From assembly GCA_965285935.1 (NCBI GenBank), contig OZ260662.1, positions 80,290,001 through 80,354,000 on the forward strand: a DNA stretch of 64,000 nucleotides, given 5' to 3'. A program made the position numbers. Positions 3,001 to 21,000 of the stretch are shown here, piece after piece. Positions within the stretch are counted from its first letter, which is position 1; every line of letters begins with the position of its first letter. The DNA is from Ophelia neglecta (taxonomy: Eukaryota).

Positions 3001-6000
3001 CAAAACACTCCTGTTTGCCCAGCACTCTGGCACATCAATACTAACGCAAATTTATAGGAGACGATTTCCGCTCTACATGCTCCTTAGTTCCTGCATGGTT
3101 GTGAGTATCCCATAATTCCTATTAGCCCGTCACTTCTGCATGTTGACACACGGGCGGCGGCGGCAGCCATGTTCCAAAGAACAGGAAATGTAACACGGTG
3201 CGATTTAATCACCCGCTATTTGTTCTTCATTGGCCATAGCCTGCGGTGAAACAAGAGGCGCGCCATTGATGGGATTGTTAGGTTGTTGGAGGCTCTCACT
3301 CACCGGCCCATTTCTGCCGGTATATCCGATCAGGAATGCTGGCAGAAAATCAACCGCCCTCAAAGCAGCCAGAGGGTATTGATTGGGAAATGAGGTTGGT
3401 CCTCCTGATCTGTTAATAAAATCTCCTCATGGCAGACTTGAACAACCTTAGATAAGAATAAACTTTGCTTAACCATAGAATTACTTTAGCCTGCTCATGC
3501 TGATTTGGGCTGAGTGATCTGAAGATGATTTTAAACTTATTCTGTGCTGGAGATTGGCAGAAAGCTCCCATAAAGCAGTTTAGAGCAGTGCCTATGGGAA
3601 CCAACAAGTCAGGCACACATGCCTCAATGGTAGTTGTGCATGCATGAGGTCATGTAATGGCTGCCATTGATATTTTCATGGCCCCTCTTCTCATGATGAT
3701 GAAGTTCAAAGCTAAATTATAGTCTTGCCAATGACCACTAAGGAGGAATTGCCACAATGGGGGCTCATTACGAATTCCACTCAGAGTGTTCAGGTGGGAA
3801 ATTAAGGCTGATTTTATGTCATACTTTGGAGGGCATGATTTCTCTTTATAGTCCCTAGTGCAAGAGAACATTGCATATTTTCTCACACATATTGCGATAT
3901 TGTTTGCCTTACTTTCTTTTATGATTGGCAAAATCCAAATTATTATTATAATACATAAACTTAACTGGTCTCATTATTTTATGAAAGGTAATTGAAGCTA
4001 TCAGCAGAATAGAAGATGACCATTAGTCTTGCCCATTCTACTAGTTTCTACTTCCTGAGTAACCTTTCAGTCTTTATTGCTGTGTGTCTGCTATATTCTG
4101 ATCAATGAGGGCAATCACCGCCAGTACAAAGAGCCCATGTCAGCACAAACTGTTTGAAATACCGGAAAAGTGATAAAGTCTCAGGAATCTATGCCAGATA
4201 AAGGCAGTGTCGGTTCTTAATTTACATTTATCAACTCATCTCCAAAAAAATATTAGCATTCATTAAATGATCAAGTGAGAAAATTTAATAGCTAGGTGAA
4301 GAATTAATACTTGGAAAGAGCCAAGTTGATTGGCTCTAGTATCCAATCTGGCCATCTCAATAACCTTGCTGATTTGAATGGCAGTAGGTTTTGTTCTGTG
4401 CAGTATTACAGACAAACAGCAAGTCATGAGGATGAAAGCTACACTGTAACTGAAGCCCAGTCTATTGATAGAACAACAATAACTGAGCTATCTCTTACAC
4501 ACAGTGGAGGTTCTGGCTGTTATTTTATGCTCCACAGACTGGGTACACCATCTCAAGAGTGGAAGATCACTTACAAAGATCACACATAGTGTTGGCCATA
4601 TAGGAACATATTCTGTACAACTCCAACTGAGTAATATAATAGCCATACTCCTTACATCCATAGCATATCCCAAATACCACATACACTAAAGTGGACTAAA
4701 TATGATATCATATATGGGTAAACAGTCTGACATCACAGTATTTCATCTGCATGATGGAACACAAAAAGTATAATATTCACCCCTTGAACCCATCATTTAG
4801 ACATCAGTCAATATACCAGAAGTAACCATAAAAACTTAAAATCTTAAAGCCCTGCTTTGCAAAAATCACTTCATAATTATCACCCTTAAAACATATTCCA
4901 ATTTGACTTTTTGTTGTGTTTTAAATGAAAAAAAAGATGGAAAGTGCCTTATTATTTATTTCCAGTTATGAGCTAGTCATTACAGAAGTTGCCCATGGTG
5001 GGAGACTTACTTGTGGTGAAGCAGTGCCTGCAGGCGTAGCCACTCAGCTCCCTGCAGTCGCTCTCCTCGGAATCCTGGTCAGACGCTTCACTGGCCGAAC
5101 TCAAGTCCACTGAAATTCAGAAAAACAATCTAGTTTTAATGTCTATAGGCTTGGACTAAACAAAATATGAATTAATTAGATTTGACTTAACATAAAATAA
5201 AATAAACAACAAATTCTGATGGTGTATCTTAATTAAATTTGAACATGGAGTTGAACATGGAATCTATCATTTACTTGATGGAGTCTACTTAAAACTAATA
5301 CTTCTAAAAATGACTATTAGCTATTCCCTCAGGTACCGGTAGGTATAGAAGCATTATTTTGTGTAAACTTCTCTCTTGATTGAACATTATCATACAAACA
5401 CCTGTTTAAATAGACCCACTTGATTCTGTCTCCTTAATAAATAGTGTGTATAGGAAATTGTTTGGGAGGTTTAAACAACTGTGTGTACTATGCCCGAGTT
5501 GAATTACATGCTAAGTGTAAAGAAGTATCCCCCAAATAACAAATCACTATGTGTCCAAGCCTGGAGCAAATACCCTGTGAACACAATCCTATTTAGAAGA
5601 ACCAGGCTTAAATTCTTGTGACTATTGACACAGTAAGACTTCTGTATATAGCCCAATCACTCTATTGATGGGCTCCAGATAGTGTACAACACATAAAGCT
5701 CTTTGAAAGAGGTTCAAGTGTGGCCGGGGACAATTCAAAGGTGATGGTATAATATAGAGATTGGCTGTTGGGAAAACCAAATAAGGTCCTGCTAACACTA
5801 AACCAAAAGTGGCAAGATATCCATCAGAGAATAAATGGGATCACTCAGGCAGAACCTCCATCTGATGAATTATTAACCCATAAGGCACATCAACAAATCT
5901 GCCATGAAAATACAATTTTTGCTTTTCATTGCGGCCAATTTATGTATTGTTAGGGAAAGTCAAAGTATTCATTTTGCACGAGGCTAAACATTTTATGGAG

Positions 6001-18000: not shown

Positions 18001-21000
18001 CATACCAACACACAAAGCTCCACTTCGGAGAATTATGGTGCTTTTTGTAACATGCTTTATTTCTTTCCTCCTAAAAGTCTTTCAATCCATTCCCGAAATG
18101 GGGATTTTATGCAGAACTGTTTGAAATCAACTAGGTTATTCTGTCCAAATTACCAGCCAATGAATGGCTAAAATGTGCGGTTCAGGAGGCATGGCTGCCA
18201 TTAGTGGATAATCAACAGCAAGCAGTGGGGATATAGCAGATAACTAGAGGTGACACCTCCATTTCCCTTCTTCACAAAATGAAGCATAAAACATTTAATG
18301 TGCGAGCAGCATGCGTTTACCAGGTGAGCAGTTTTCAGAGATGGACTCGCATCATGGTAATCCCTTGTACTCACTACTTCTTTTCTACTGCAGACATCCT
18401 TTAGCAAGTTGCATTAAACTTGGCATATTACAGGGAAGTAAGGCTAAAACACTTTCTTCCTAATATTTTTATACTAGGACTGATTATGGTGTAGTTACCC
18501 AAGAGGGTATCAGAGAAGATGTTTCTGACAATTAAAACAACTCCTCTGTATGGCTGTCAATGATGAGCGGATATGATGACTCCCAGCAGTAATCTTTTAA
18601 TTAACACTCTAAGTCTGAGACACTACACAGAAACACTTTTATTTATCCTAAAGAGGCCAAACTAAGTCAATAGAAATTTTGCATTGTAGGAGTACAAAGT
18701 TTGAATTATTATAAGTAATATATTACATTAAAGGTGAATTGAAAAAGTAATGATTATAAACAGACTGAGTTTCGTCTTAAGTAGTGAATGGTGGAAGAAC
18801 ATGGCAAATTCATTATTATTTCAAACAGGCCACACTGGTAAGCCAGGTTATGGGTGTTTTCAATGAATATTGGCAACACGTACGTGCTGTAATTCTGCTG
18901 AAAATATCCTGGTAATGCCGCTGCGCACATTTAATAATCACACAGAGGCCCCCTGTGACATCAAATCGCTCCACCATGCAAGAGTTAACTGGCAGCGCCC
19001 ACCACTCACAGTGCTGTGCCAAATAATTCATGTGGCGCGGCTGTCACGTCGCCAAATCTGGCCATTACTGTGAAAACTCCATCTAATCCGAGTAGGGAGA
19101 GTTTACCATGTCAGCGGCGATCCCCTCAGCGCTCGCTGACAATGAGCTGTGCAATCTTTTTCAGTGGCGGGTCGAGTTATTGACGCATCAATCAGGGTAG
19201 GCAGGGTTGATCGGAGGAGATCGGGCCGCGCAGTGAACACTATCAGCAGGCTGCAGATCACCAACAGAATTCTCTACTGCAACCGGATGAAAAGACCAGA
19301 CATCGCAGAAATATGAAGTGCGCTCTTTGTGTGCAGTGACAGTTGTCTCACAGCAACAAGAGGAGAATCGATGAAGGAATCGCTGATGGAGATGGAAGGG
19401 GCAGAAGGCGAAGAGAATCAAAGGAGAGGGATGAGAGGAATGTGATTACCAGAAGCCAGTAACAAGATGGCTATTTATAAGGATATGAGCACACAAGAAG
19501 GAGAAATCACTGACAGAGGACAGGAATTGGGTTTTGGCTATACACAGGAGTGTAGATCACACATTCACACCAATTATAAATATGTACTCTATGCTCCATC
19601 AACCACTGTGCCTAAAAGCAGTGGTGTAAAAACACAATGAAGTAGGAATGCTGGGTATTGCTACAATCTTTGAACCCAGTTTATCAAAGATATTTAGGAA
19701 ACAGGGGCATTTACACACAAATACAAATGAGTCAAAACCAAATTATACTTACAGTTTGCTTGTTAGGTAGCAGTTCTTTTCTGATTCTAAAAAAATTCTT
19801 CCCATATTGTCTTAACCCTTTGACAAACTTTTTCTACAAAGAAGAAACATTTACATGATAATAATATTGAATAAGTTTCTAAATGGCCACAAATTGAGTG
19901 ACCAAACAGTATTACAGTTTAAATAAAAAGTAAATATTGTCCTTAGTTGGGAATTTCAAATAAATATTTCACCTAGTATGTATGGTCTCTCTTAAACTTC
20001 CTTTGCAAAGAAATTAACAAAATTTACATGAAGTTTTACCTAAAACTGTGATTGAAATAAGCATGATGTATTCATGTGCTTTATTTCCACACCAAGGGCT
20101 TATTTTTACAAATGAAAGCAGCACAAAACTGCTATTTCATCTTATACATGGAAACATCACTCTCAGGGGGTGGTAATATACAGACCATGAATAATGCTAT
20201 TCATTGCTGTGTCACACCAAGGTTATTCACCTAGGAAGAACACCAAAACTTGGCTGTACAAGTAAGATCCCTGCAGTCTACCACCCATCACCAAGCTTAG
20301 GTGAGACTGGACTGGTTAATACCAACATGAAAGCTACAAATGACGGTGTATGTTTAACAGACACCCTCTAGGTAAATAACCCTAGTTGAAGCACACTATG
20401 CCTTTCCAGTACTATTCATTGCACTGAAATCCTACCCTTTTCAAGAGAACATGTTGTTGACATGTCATTGCACAGCAAATGTATTGAAATCTCACGCTTG
20501 TATGGAAAGGCTCTCAACTAGGACCAAGTAGGGGATTGTAGCTTGATGAATAAATAAACAAATAATAGATTTCAATAAACCCATCTAAAGGCCACATACA
20601 AGGTAGAAGTAGACGTTTTGTTGGGAATTACTTAAGCTTTTGGACTTTATCGGTATTTAGGGTATGATTATATGGCCACATAGGCTCAAAGTGTAAATAA
20701 CTAGGGGCTAATTACTACATTTACCAAAGTCAAAACCCAAAAAAGCTTTTAATACTGACTTGGCTACTTTAAGTGGCTTTGTTCTCCGACACTGGGTGAG
20801 ACCGGGTGTGAAATAGGCTTGCAGTGAATGGGTCAATTTGGCGTGAAAGTTTTCGATTGTGCATGCCTGATCTTTTAATATCAGCAGCTTGACCCTAATT
20901 CAAAGTGGATTGGGAACCTCCCCAATGCCTTAATGGGAATAATATGCTGTGAAGGATAGGGGATTGTTCCCTGGCTGGTTCTGAACATGAGCTGAATACT

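What the first reader, a model, noticed from the sequence alone, without database searches (positions are those of the whole stretch)
3060..19480. Series of promoter-like islands (19.2, 14.7, 12.7, 3.2 kb) concentrated after the SANT core exon
Seen: the strongest CpG/GC islands in the window fall in introns downstream of exon 19753-19833, and each has a donor in the gene's sense. Inference: a ladder of internal start sites could tune the ratio of HDAC-binding to HDAC-less atrophin from one locus, a job vertebrates split between RERE-long, RERE-short and ATN1.
Basis: inference. Interest (0 to 1): 0.65.

Follow-up and report, generated by a model that had tools for sequence, protein, structure and literature searches.

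The report
Intronic CpG islands in an atrophin gene
Three short CpG-rich patches sit in introns of an invertebrate atrophin (RERE-like) gene whose DNA is otherwise stripped of CpG; they may be internal start sites or enhancers, but the sequence alone cannot show that they make a shortened protein.

Summary
The window lies inside one RERE/atrophin-like gene on the minus strand. Its BAH, ELM2, SANT and first GATA exons were mapped. The 14 named protein hits are all molluscan, and I do not take the contig for human.

CpG is heavily depleted: o/e 0.20 overall and 0.17 in introns. Three non-coding patches stand out:
- 18879-19410: 28 CpG, o/e 0.80.
- 14563-14838: 16 CpG, o/e 0.68.
- 3045-3356: 18 CpG, o/e 0.92.

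All three lie downstream of exon 19753-19833. A fourth cluster, at 8.7 kb, is the coding SANT-b exon.

The islands show no transposon hallmarks, no repeats, no Rfam or Pfam match, no protein homologue and no RNA-fold signal.

Sense donors occur at chance density (1 per 408 bp). The 14.7 kb island has none. Only the 3.2 kb island has a strong one, at 3304 (11.6 bits, third best in the window). One of 8 candidate donors has an in-frame ATG.

My best reading is that these are germline-unmethylated "orphan" CpG islands, either promoters or enhancers. The proposed ladder of HDAC-less isoforms is untested and needs expression data.

The parts
18879..19410 (.). CpG island '19.2 kb'. It lies in the intron between SANT-a and SANT-b and begins about 340 bp downstream of the SANT-a donor.
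   Evidence: 28 CpG in 532 bp, GC 0.513, o/e 0.80, P=5e-11 against background. Weak sense donors at 19010 and 19003, at 6.6 and 7.2 bits. No homologue for ORF 19191-19445(-).
14563..14838 (.). CpG island '14.7 kb', in the same intron.
   Evidence: 16 CpG in 276 bp, GC 0.583, o/e 0.68. No sense donor of >=6 bits inside it; plus-strand donor-like sites at 14719 (10.4 bits) and 14614. YY1-like AAGATGGCCGC on the plus strand at 14584-14594. ORF 14541-14858(-) had 0 hits among 1.84 billion representatives.
3045..3356 (.). CpG island '3.2 kb', in the intron after the GATA-a exon.
   Evidence: 18 CpG in 312 bp, GC 0.50, o/e 0.92. No homologue for ORF 3208-3426(-).
3298..3311 (-). ATG (3311-3309) followed by a strong sense donor CCG|GTGAGT, with the last exon base at 3304.
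   Evidence: The donor scores 11.6 bits, third of all minus-strand GT sites. The ATG leaves phase 2, which is out of frame with the phase-1 junction that follows GATA-a (read).
12560..12960 (.). GC-rich, C-rich patch '12.7 kb'. It is not a CpG island.
   Evidence: 8 CpG, o/e 0.33, P=0.055; the core 12623-12922 has GC 0.557 and 5 CpG. All three minus frames are open, which points to a compositional effect. No Pfam hit.
19753..19833 (-). SANT core exon (81 nt, phase 0 at both ends).
   Evidence: tblastn to P0001 residues 352-378. The Pfam SANT/Myb match in P0001 is 344-388. Splice sites were read.
8658..8796 (-). SANT-b exon, Arg-rich. It is itself a CpG cluster.
   Evidence: 75% identity to P0001 379-426. 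80% identity in the database search. 12 CpG at 8657-8750, o/e 1.56.
5011..5109 (-). GATA-a exon (acidic linker plus the first Cys pair of the GATA finger). It ends in phase 1.
   Evidence: tblastn to P0006 447-478. The GATA Pfam match in P0006 is 471-505. No exon for the rest of the finger was found in the window.
21489..21587 (-). Linker exon carrying the start of SANT.
   Evidence: tblastn to P0001 319-350; boundaries.
21845..21944 (-). Exon just after the ELM2 domain, aligned to P0001 277-320.
   Evidence: tblastn; boundaries.
22631..22764 (-). ELM2 exon.
   Evidence: Pfam ELM2, E=1.2e-5, 26.6 bits against a cut-off of 21.7; tblastn.
25530..25683 (-). Exon carrying the end of BAH and the start of ELM2.
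   Evidence: Pfam BAH, E=7.7e-4, below the curated cut-off. tblastn at 74% identity to P0001 192-245.
32109..32205 (-). BAH exon.
   Evidence: tblastn; boundaries.
43429..43534 (-). BAH exon.
   Evidence: tblastn at 76% identity to P0001 127-160.
48695..48765 (-). First BAH exon seen in the window.
   Evidence: tblastn.

Best explanation
The whole window is gene body of an invertebrate RERE/atrophin-like gene. Its CpGs have been lost to germline methylation. The three non-coding patches at 19.2, 14.7 and 3.2 kb kept their CpGs because they are protected from methylation in the germ line. That makes them 'orphan' intragenic CpG islands: sites of bound factors and open chromatin that act as internal promoters (sense, antisense or both) or as enhancers of the gene.

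The 3.2 kb island is the best candidate for a true sense start site. It has a GC box and a CCAAT upstream, then an ATG, then the third-strongest donor of the window at 3304, and the island runs on into the presumed first intron.

Shown: the islands, their positions relative to the exons, and the lack of any coding, RNA-family or transposon signal. Inferred: the unmethylated state, any transcription, and any protein product.
For: - CpG depletion is uniform and deep in the introns (o/e 0.17, with TpG+CpA o/e 1.39), and the islands rise sharply from flanks holding 0-1 CpG per 100 bp.
- Island statistics are far beyond chance.
- The islands are not coding. There is no Pfam hit in 149 minus-strand and 136 plus-strand ORFs covering 1-27/30 kb, apart from ELM2 and BAH in known exons and one sub-threshold HTH_63 match outside the islands. 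Three island ORFs have no homologue.
- They are not repeats. There are 0 repeat families in the window, only chance-level short repeats around the islands, and no similarity among the islands or to the rest of the window.
- They are not known RNAs. Rfam gives 0 hits at gathering score, and 1 weak hit outside the islands at E<=5. There is no tRNA, and the fold z-scores lie between -1.44 and +0.95.
- The donor at 3304 scores 11.6 bits. Only 3 minus-strand sites reach that score in 64 kb.
- Literature: about half of vertebrate CpG islands are orphans, and many initiate transcription (PMC2944787, abstract). CGI-like unmethylated regions have been described in methylated invertebrate genomes (PMC8286816, passages). 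Gene-body methylation suppresses intragenic start sites that give shorter or antisense transcripts in a cnidarian, and the newly opened methylated peaks there are enriched for NFY and YY1 motifs (PMC13345969, passages).
Against: - No methylation, transcription or conservation data could be consulted, so the unmethylated state is an inference from CpG retention alone.
- The islands are small (276-532 bp) and none passes the Takai-Jones criteria.
- TpG+CpA o/e inside the islands (1.21-1.41) is close to the background value of 1.39, as if some decay had occurred.
- CpG-free promoter motifs are not enriched: TATA 1 found against 1.6 expected, CCAAT 3 against 4.0.
- The YY1-core excess (3 against 0.61) was noticed first and tested afterwards.
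- The GC-skew pattern fits divergent initiation at 19.2 and 3.2 kb but is the opposite at 14.7 kb.
- A recent insertion would look the same without a genome to count copies in.
Confidence: 0.5

Rival explanations
1. The islands are a series of sense internal promoters whose transcripts splice into the downstream exons. They yield atrophin lacking BAH, ELM2 and SANT (HDAC-less) and so tune the long/short ratio from one locus.
For: - The islands all lie downstream of the SANT core exon.
- Vertebrate RERE-S, which holds only the atrophin-1 domain, comes from an internal promoter (PMC10676324, passages).
- The 3.2 kb island has a strong sense donor.
- In 7 of 7 mollusc relatives, the first Met after SANT-b lies just past the GATA finger. 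In the one checked (P0006) it sits at the start of the Pfam Atrophin-1 match (Met 536, match from 532). A leader starting anywhere in this interval could therefore give an atrophin-domain-only protein.
Against: - Donors are at chance density in the 19.2 and 12.7 kb patches, and there is none inside 14.7.
- Only 1 of 8 candidate donors has an in-frame ATG, and that donor is weak at 6.7 bits.
- The ATG next to the strong 3304 donor is out of frame with the next known junction.
- 12.7 kb is not an island.
- All the start sites would converge on one protein, so there is no graded ladder.
- The start sites would cut through the SANT and GATA domains instead of lying after GATA as in RERE-S.
- None of the 19 hits to the SANT-b exon shows an architecture that starts between ELM2 and SANT-b. 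This is weak evidence, because only 23 candidates were scored and isoforms may be merged by clustering.
Confidence: 0.15
2. The patches are recent insertions, such as young SINE-like or other mobile DNA or a retro-copied fragment. They are methylated like their surroundings but too young to have lost their CpGs.
For: - The boundaries are sharp and the sizes are small, 276-532 bp.
- TpG+CpA excess inside the islands is similar to background.
- In the cnidarian study many intragenic start sites derive from transposons (PMC13345969, passages).
Against: - There are no terminal inverted repeats, target-site duplications or tails beyond chance matches.
- There is no second copy in 64 kb and no similarity among the three patches.
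- There is no tRNA-like head.
- There is no transposon protein domain.
- Copy number in the genome could not be checked, because no eukaryotic genome collection was on hand.
Confidence: 0.15
3. The patches belong to something unannotated: promoters or exons of an antisense or nested transcript, or a novel non-coding RNA gene.
For: - Plus-strand donor-like sites in and beside 14.7 kb are stronger than the sense ones: 10.4 bits at 14719 and 8.7 bits at 14420.
- A YY1-like motif lies on the plus strand at 14584.
- The GC skew at 19.2 and 3.2 kb fits divergent initiation.
Against: - There is no Pfam hit on plus-strand ORFs from 1 to 27 kb, apart from one sub-threshold HTH_63 match at 7018-7227.
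- There is no Rfam family.
- There is no fold signal on either strand.
Confidence: 0.12
4. The patches are compositional fluctuation with no function.
For: The 12.7 kb patch and several smaller clusters (24809-24907, 27747-27886, 47154-47204) lie within the chance range.
Against: The three islands exceed every one of the 300 uniform simulations, and their Poisson P values are 5e-6 to 5e-11.
Confidence: 0.03

Closest known systems
Internal promoter of vertebrate RERE that makes RERE-S (atrophin-2 short form)
   Same: The gene family is the same. An intragenic start would remove the BAH-ELM2-SANT (HDAC-recruiting) part and leave the atrophin-1 domain (PMC10676324, passages). The 3.2 kb island lies close to the corresponding point of the coding sequence.
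   Different: RERE-S lacks the GATA finger as well. Here the islands lie inside the SANT-coding and GATA-coding intervals. No transcript evidence exists here. I did not compare the position of the vertebrate promoter at DNA level.
Orphan (intragenic) CpG islands of vertebrate genomes
   Same: Both are CpG-rich, GC-rich patches away from the annotated promoter in an otherwise CpG-depleted, methylated background. Many such islands initiate transcription or act as enhancers (PMC2944787, abstract; PMC8286816, passages).
   Different: The host is apparently an invertebrate. The islands are shorter and less GC-rich than typical mammalian ones, and none passes Takai-Jones. Their methylation state is unknown.
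CGI-like unmethylated regions in methylated invertebrate genomes, and cryptic intragenic start sites held down by gene-body methylation
   Same: These are patches of retained CpG or open chromatin within methylated gene bodies. NFY and YY1 motifs are reported at such intragenic sites in a cnidarian (PMC8286816 and PMC13345969, passages). One full NF-Y-type CCAAT and two YY1-like sites occur in the islands here.
   Different: The cnidarian sites are methylated and silent in normal animals and often derive from transposons. The islands here look constitutively protected and show no transposon signature.

Membership tests
CpG island (Gardiner-Garden and Frommer criteria) | At least 200 bp with GC>=0.50 and CpG o/e>=0.60 | tested here: met
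   Met at 3101-3400, 14551-14850 and 18901-19400, and also at the coding exon 8601-8800. 14 of 1277 windows pass. Not met at 12.7 kb, where o/e is 0.23-0.33.
CpG island (Takai-Jones criteria) | At least 500 bp with GC>=0.55 and o/e>=0.65 | tested here: not met
   0 windows pass. The 19.2 kb island passes only a relaxed test of 500 bp, GC>=0.5 and o/e>=0.6.
Non-methylated island / orphan CGI | Lack of cytosine methylation in the germ line or in tissues | not testable with these tools
   This is inferred only from CpG retention against a background o/e of 0.17.
Promoter / alternative first exon | Transcription start evidence (CAGE, 5' ends, H3K4me3) | not testable with these tools
   No expression or chromatin data were available.
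Promoter / alternative first exon | A sense splice donor stronger than chance downstream of the start | tested here: inconclusive
   3.2 kb: 11.6 bits, third best in the window. 19.2 kb: 6.6 and 7.2 bits, at chance density. 14.7 kb: none inside the island. The donor matrix rests on recalled frequencies and was calibrated on the gene's own 10 donors (4.6-11.3 bits).
Promoter / alternative first exon | A start codon in frame with the next exon (if the first exon is coding) | tested here: not met
   Only 1 of 8 candidate donors qualifies (ATG 3237 with the weak donor at 3213), which is a chance-level result. A non-coding first exon remains possible.
RERE-S-type internal promoter | A location that removes BAH, ELM2, SANT and GATA together | tested here: not met
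   The 19.2 and 14.7 kb islands lie between the SANT-a and SANT-b exons. The 3.2 kb island lies after the first Cys pair of GATA. The protein outcome could still be the same through the first downstream Met.
RERE / atrophin gene | BAH, ELM2, SANT and GATA in that order, followed by the Atrophin-1 domain | tested here: met
   ELM2 is above the Pfam cut-off and BAH is below it. All of the exons align in order to RERE-like proteins carrying these domains. The second half of GATA and the Atrophin-1 domain lie outside the window and were not seen.
Transposable element or SINE | Repeated copies, terminal repeats or target duplications, a tRNA-like head, or element-encoded protein domains | tested here: not met
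   Genome-wide copy number could not be tested.
Known non-coding RNA gene | A match to an Rfam family, or a fold more stable than shuffles | tested here: not met
   Rfam gives 0 hits at gathering score. Between 2500 and 20000 the only hit is a weak snoTBR12 match, E=0.89, at 16980-17087, outside the islands. Fold z-scores run from -1.44 to +0.95.

The most novel reading that the evidence does not exclude
A single-copy invertebrate atrophin gene keeps germline-unmethylated internal promoters, chiefly the 3.2 kb island. These would yield an atrophin-domain-only, HDAC-less protein translated from the Met just past the GATA finger, which is conserved in the 7 mollusc relatives checked. If so, the long/short division of labour seen in vertebrates (RERE-L, RERE-S, ATN1) predates the vertebrate duplication, and ATN1 would be a fixed copy of an ancient short isoform.
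Probability: 0.13. Interest if true: 0.6.

Novelty: new member of a known kind. Interest (0 to 1): 0.3.

Why it matters
If the islands are active internal promoters, the HDAC-binding and HDAC-less forms of atrophin would be an ancient two-product design of one gene, not a vertebrate invention. That bears on how ATN1 arose. More generally, clear CpG islands inside a deeply CpG-depleted invertebrate gene body would add a case to the still thin record of CGI-like elements outside vertebrates. As it stands, the finding is an ordinary-looking set of intragenic CpG islands whose function is untested.

Tried and rejected
- **Hidden exons or pseudogenes in the islands.** Pfam on 149 minus-strand ORFs (1-29.9 kb) and 136 plus-strand ORFs (1-27 kb) found only ELM2 and BAH in known exons and one sub-threshold HTH_63 match at 7018-7227. 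One ORF per island was searched against the large protein sets and gave no hit. Only one frame per island was tried, and searches covered near-length proteins only.
- **Transposon origin.** There are no repeat families, no convincing terminal or direct repeats, only ten small tandem arrays, none of them in an island, and no similarity among the islands or to the window.
- **RNA genes.** Rfam at gathering score and at E<=5, ARAGORN, and fold z-scores gave nothing.
- **Promoter motifs.** CpG-free motifs are not enriched. CpG-containing ones are trivially enriched. The YY1-like enrichment was spotted before it was tested.
- **A step in background CpG depletion across exon 19753-19833**, as a proxy for different germline transcription. 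None was found: o/e 0.174 against 0.169.
- **GC skew as an orientation cue.** It was inconsistent among the islands.
- **A 35-nt cassette exon at 3338-3304** (acceptor-like site plus the strong donor). It would shift the frame, and I did not pursue it.
- **Literature on short atrophin forms in flies or worms.** Two searches and passages of PMC5409829 and PMC1868043 mention none. This does not show that none is in print.

Exons were searched one at a time.

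
Full report
**What the window is.** The 64,000 bases hold no N, have GC 38.6%, and carry only 471 CpGs (o/e 0.198) with an excess of CA and TG (o/e 1.41 and 1.37). The window has no interspersed repeat families at seed 14 and length 60, no tRNA and no Rfam family at gathering score.

A Pfam scan of 149 minus-strand ORFs found ELM2 at 22597-22809 (26.6 bits, above the cut-off) and the end of a BAH domain at 25524-25706 (below the cut-off). I searched the exon 8659-8796 on its own against the large protein set. It gave 19 hits among 23 candidates. The best is an unnamed 473-residue protein (P0001, 80% identity). All 14 named hits are molluscan RERE-like / "arginine-glutamic acid dipeptide repeats" proteins at 57-65% identity.

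I ran tblastn of P0001 and three mollusc proteins against the window and then read the splice sites. This gives ten minus-strand exons in protein order:

| Exon | Content |
|---|---|
| 48695-48765 | BAH |
| 43429-43534 | BAH |
| 32109-32205 | BAH |
| 25530-25683 | End of BAH, start of ELM2 |
| 22631-22764 | ELM2 |
| 21845-21944 | Just after ELM2 |
| 21489-21587 | Linker and first residues of SANT |
| 19753-19833 | SANT core |
| 8658-8796 | End of SANT and an Arg-rich tail |
| 5011-5109 | Acidic linker and first Cys pair of the GATA finger |

The rest of GATA and the Atrophin-1 domain lie beyond the low end of the window, and no main promoter is visible at the high end.

I do not take the contig for human. 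Its exons match an unnamed record and mollusc proteins best, and no tool objected to the letters. I did not compare it with vertebrate RERE by any tool.

**The observation.** Four CpG clusters rise above chance.

| Cluster | CpGs | GC | o/e |
|---|---|---|---|
| 18879-19410 | 28 | 0.513 | 0.80 |
| 3045-3356 | 18 | 0.50 | 0.92 |
| 14563-14838 | 16 | 0.583 | 0.68 |
| 8657-8750 | 12 | 0.606 | 1.56 |

In 300 uniform re-placements of the CpGs, the largest count per 300 bp averaged 8.4 and never passed 12. The observed counts are 19, 17, 16 and 14. Against the intronic background o/e of 0.17, the Poisson P values for the three non-coding clusters are 5e-11, 2e-8 and 5e-6.

The cluster at 8.7 kb is simply the SANT-b coding exon, which is full of CGN arginine codons. 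The other three are intronic and all lie downstream of exon 19753-19833. The chance of that placement is about 0.03.

But it holds only 5-8 CpGs (o/e 0.23-0.33, P=0.06-0.32), so it is not a CpG island. None of the islands meets the stricter Takai-Jones definition.

**The donors.** I scored donor-like sites with a matrix of recalled metazoan frequencies, calibrated on the gene's own ten donors (4.6-11.3 bits, median 7.8). Sites of 6 bits or more occur 157 times on the minus strand (one per 408 bp) and 159 times on the plus strand. One is therefore expected by chance in an island of this size.
- The 19.2 kb island has two weak sense donors (6.6 and 7.2 bits).
- The 14.7 kb island has none inside it.
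- The 12.7 kb patch has three.
- Only the 3.2 kb island stands out. CCG|GTGAGT after base 3304 scores 11.6 bits, third among all minus-strand sites. About 0.015 such sites would be expected in 312 bp.

**Coding continuity.** Of the eight candidate sense donors, only one has an upstream ATG in frame with the next known exon without an intervening stop: the weak donor after 3213, with ATG at 3237. That is a chance-level result. The ATG directly before the strong donor (3311-3309) leaves phase 2. The junction after the GATA-a exon needs phase 1, so this ATG would be out of frame if spliced to the next canonical exon.

**What the islands are not.**
- They hold no Pfam domain on either strand.
- One ORF per island found no relative: 19191-19445(-) and 3208-3426(-) in the word-indexed set, and 14541-14858(-) by phmmer against 1.84 billion representatives, with 0 hits.
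- They have no terminal or direct repeats beyond chance matches.
- They have no tandem arrays.
- They are not similar to each other or to anything else in the window.
- Rfam in its permissive mode over 2500-20000 gave a single weak hit outside the islands.
- Folding either strand is no more stable than shuffles, with z between -1.44 and +0.95.
- CpG-free promoter motifs are not enriched: TATA 1 against 1.6 expected, CCAAT 3 against 4.0.
- GC boxes and YY1-like sites are more frequent than expected, but the former contain CpG and the latter were noticed before they were tested.
- Background CpG depletion is the same on both sides of the SANT core exon, 0.174 against 0.169.

**Most likely explanation.** A uniform, vertebrate-grade CpG depletion with TpG/CpA excess over 64 kb of one gene is the mark of heavy germline methylation of the gene body. 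Short non-coding patches that keep a near-expected CpG content are best explained as places protected from methylation, that is, orphan intragenic CpG islands.

In vertebrates about half of all CpG islands are of this kind. Many initiate transcription and others act as enhancers (PMC2944787, abstract; PMC8286816, passages). CGI-like regions have been described in methylated invertebrate genomes (PMC8286816, passages). In a cnidarian, gene-body methylation holds down intragenic start sites that give shorter or antisense transcripts, and the newly opened methylated peaks there are enriched for NFY and YY1 motifs (PMC13345969, passages).

I put about 0.5 on [quoted passage not shown]. Within that reading, the 3.2 kb island is the best candidate for a real sense start site. 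On the minus strand it has a CCAAT at 3386-3382 and a GC box at 3359-3354. An ATG, the strong donor at 3304 and the CpG-rich body of the island follow downstream.

An internal promoter giving a short RERE that holds only the atrophin-1 domain is established for vertebrates (PMC10676324, passages citing Shen et al. 2007). So the idea is reasonable and not new in kind.

Two points from the sequence reshape it. First, the islands lie inside the SANT-coding interval (19.2 and 14.7 kb) and inside the GATA-coding interval (3.2 kb), not after GATA.

Second, the two exons downstream of the first two islands contain no Met. In 7 of 7 mollusc relatives the first Met after the SANT-b motif is a conserved one. 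It lies about 30 residues past the GATA finger and at the start of the Pfam Atrophin-1 match in P0006 and P0005, the two relatives with Pfam domain coordinates.

Any sense transcript from any of the three islands would therefore most plausibly give the same atrophin-domain-only protein. The result would be a single switch, not a ladder. Whether any such transcript exists cannot be told from the sequence, and I give the model about 0.15.

**Rivals.**
- Young insertions (0.15) are not excluded, because copy number in the source genome could not be examined.
- Antisense or nested transcripts (0.12) are suggested only by stronger plus-strand donor-like sites and a plus-strand YY1-like site at 14.7 kb.
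- Pure chance is excluded for the three islands but not for the 12.7 kb patch.

**Verdict.** The thing itself is a new instance of a known kind, namely intragenic CpG islands in a gene family already known to use an internal promoter. Supplementary files of the papers were not consulted. I saw only the passages or abstracts named above.

Noticed in passing
window 1-64000: CpG depletion is as deep as in vertebrates (o/e 0.20 overall, 0.17 in introns, with CA/TG excess of about 1.4). Yet the gene's named relatives are all molluscan. This suggests very heavy germline gene-body methylation in the source species.
   Followed up: partly
window 8657-8750 and 5035-5097: The SANT-b and GATA-a coding exons are themselves CpG clusters (12 CpG at o/e 1.56, and 5 CpG at o/e 0.84). 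The CpGs are probably kept by selection on codons such as the Arg CGN codons of SANT-b.
   Followed up: yes
window 8635-8657 (minus strand, just past the SANT-b donor): Reading through the donor after 8658 gives 8 more codons and a stop. Three database proteins (P0001, P0007 from Mya arenaria, P0010) also continue past this same exon end into intron-like residues and then stop or run on. This hints at retained-intron or truncated N-terminal-only models in other species.
   Followed up: no
window 1-64000: No interspersed repeat family was found in 64 kb of mostly intronic DNA (seed 14, length 60). There are only ten small tandem arrays, including a 24-base G run at 42828-42851.
   Followed up: partly
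window 3304-3338 (minus strand): An acceptor-like site (pyrimidine run plus AG, ending at 3339) lies 35 nt upstream of the strong donor at 3304. Used as a cassette exon, it would shift the reading frame between the two GATA exons (read).
   Followed up: no
window 24809-24907, 27747-27886, 47154-47204: These are small CpG clusters (6-8 CpGs, o/e 1.16-1.38) upstream of the SANT exon. They fall within the range reached by random placement.
   Followed up: partly
window 19472-19479 (minus strand): A TATAAATA box directly followed by GCCATCTTG sits about 60 bp upstream, in the gene's sense, of the 19.2 kb island. TATA-like sites are not enriched in the islands overall.
   Followed up: partly
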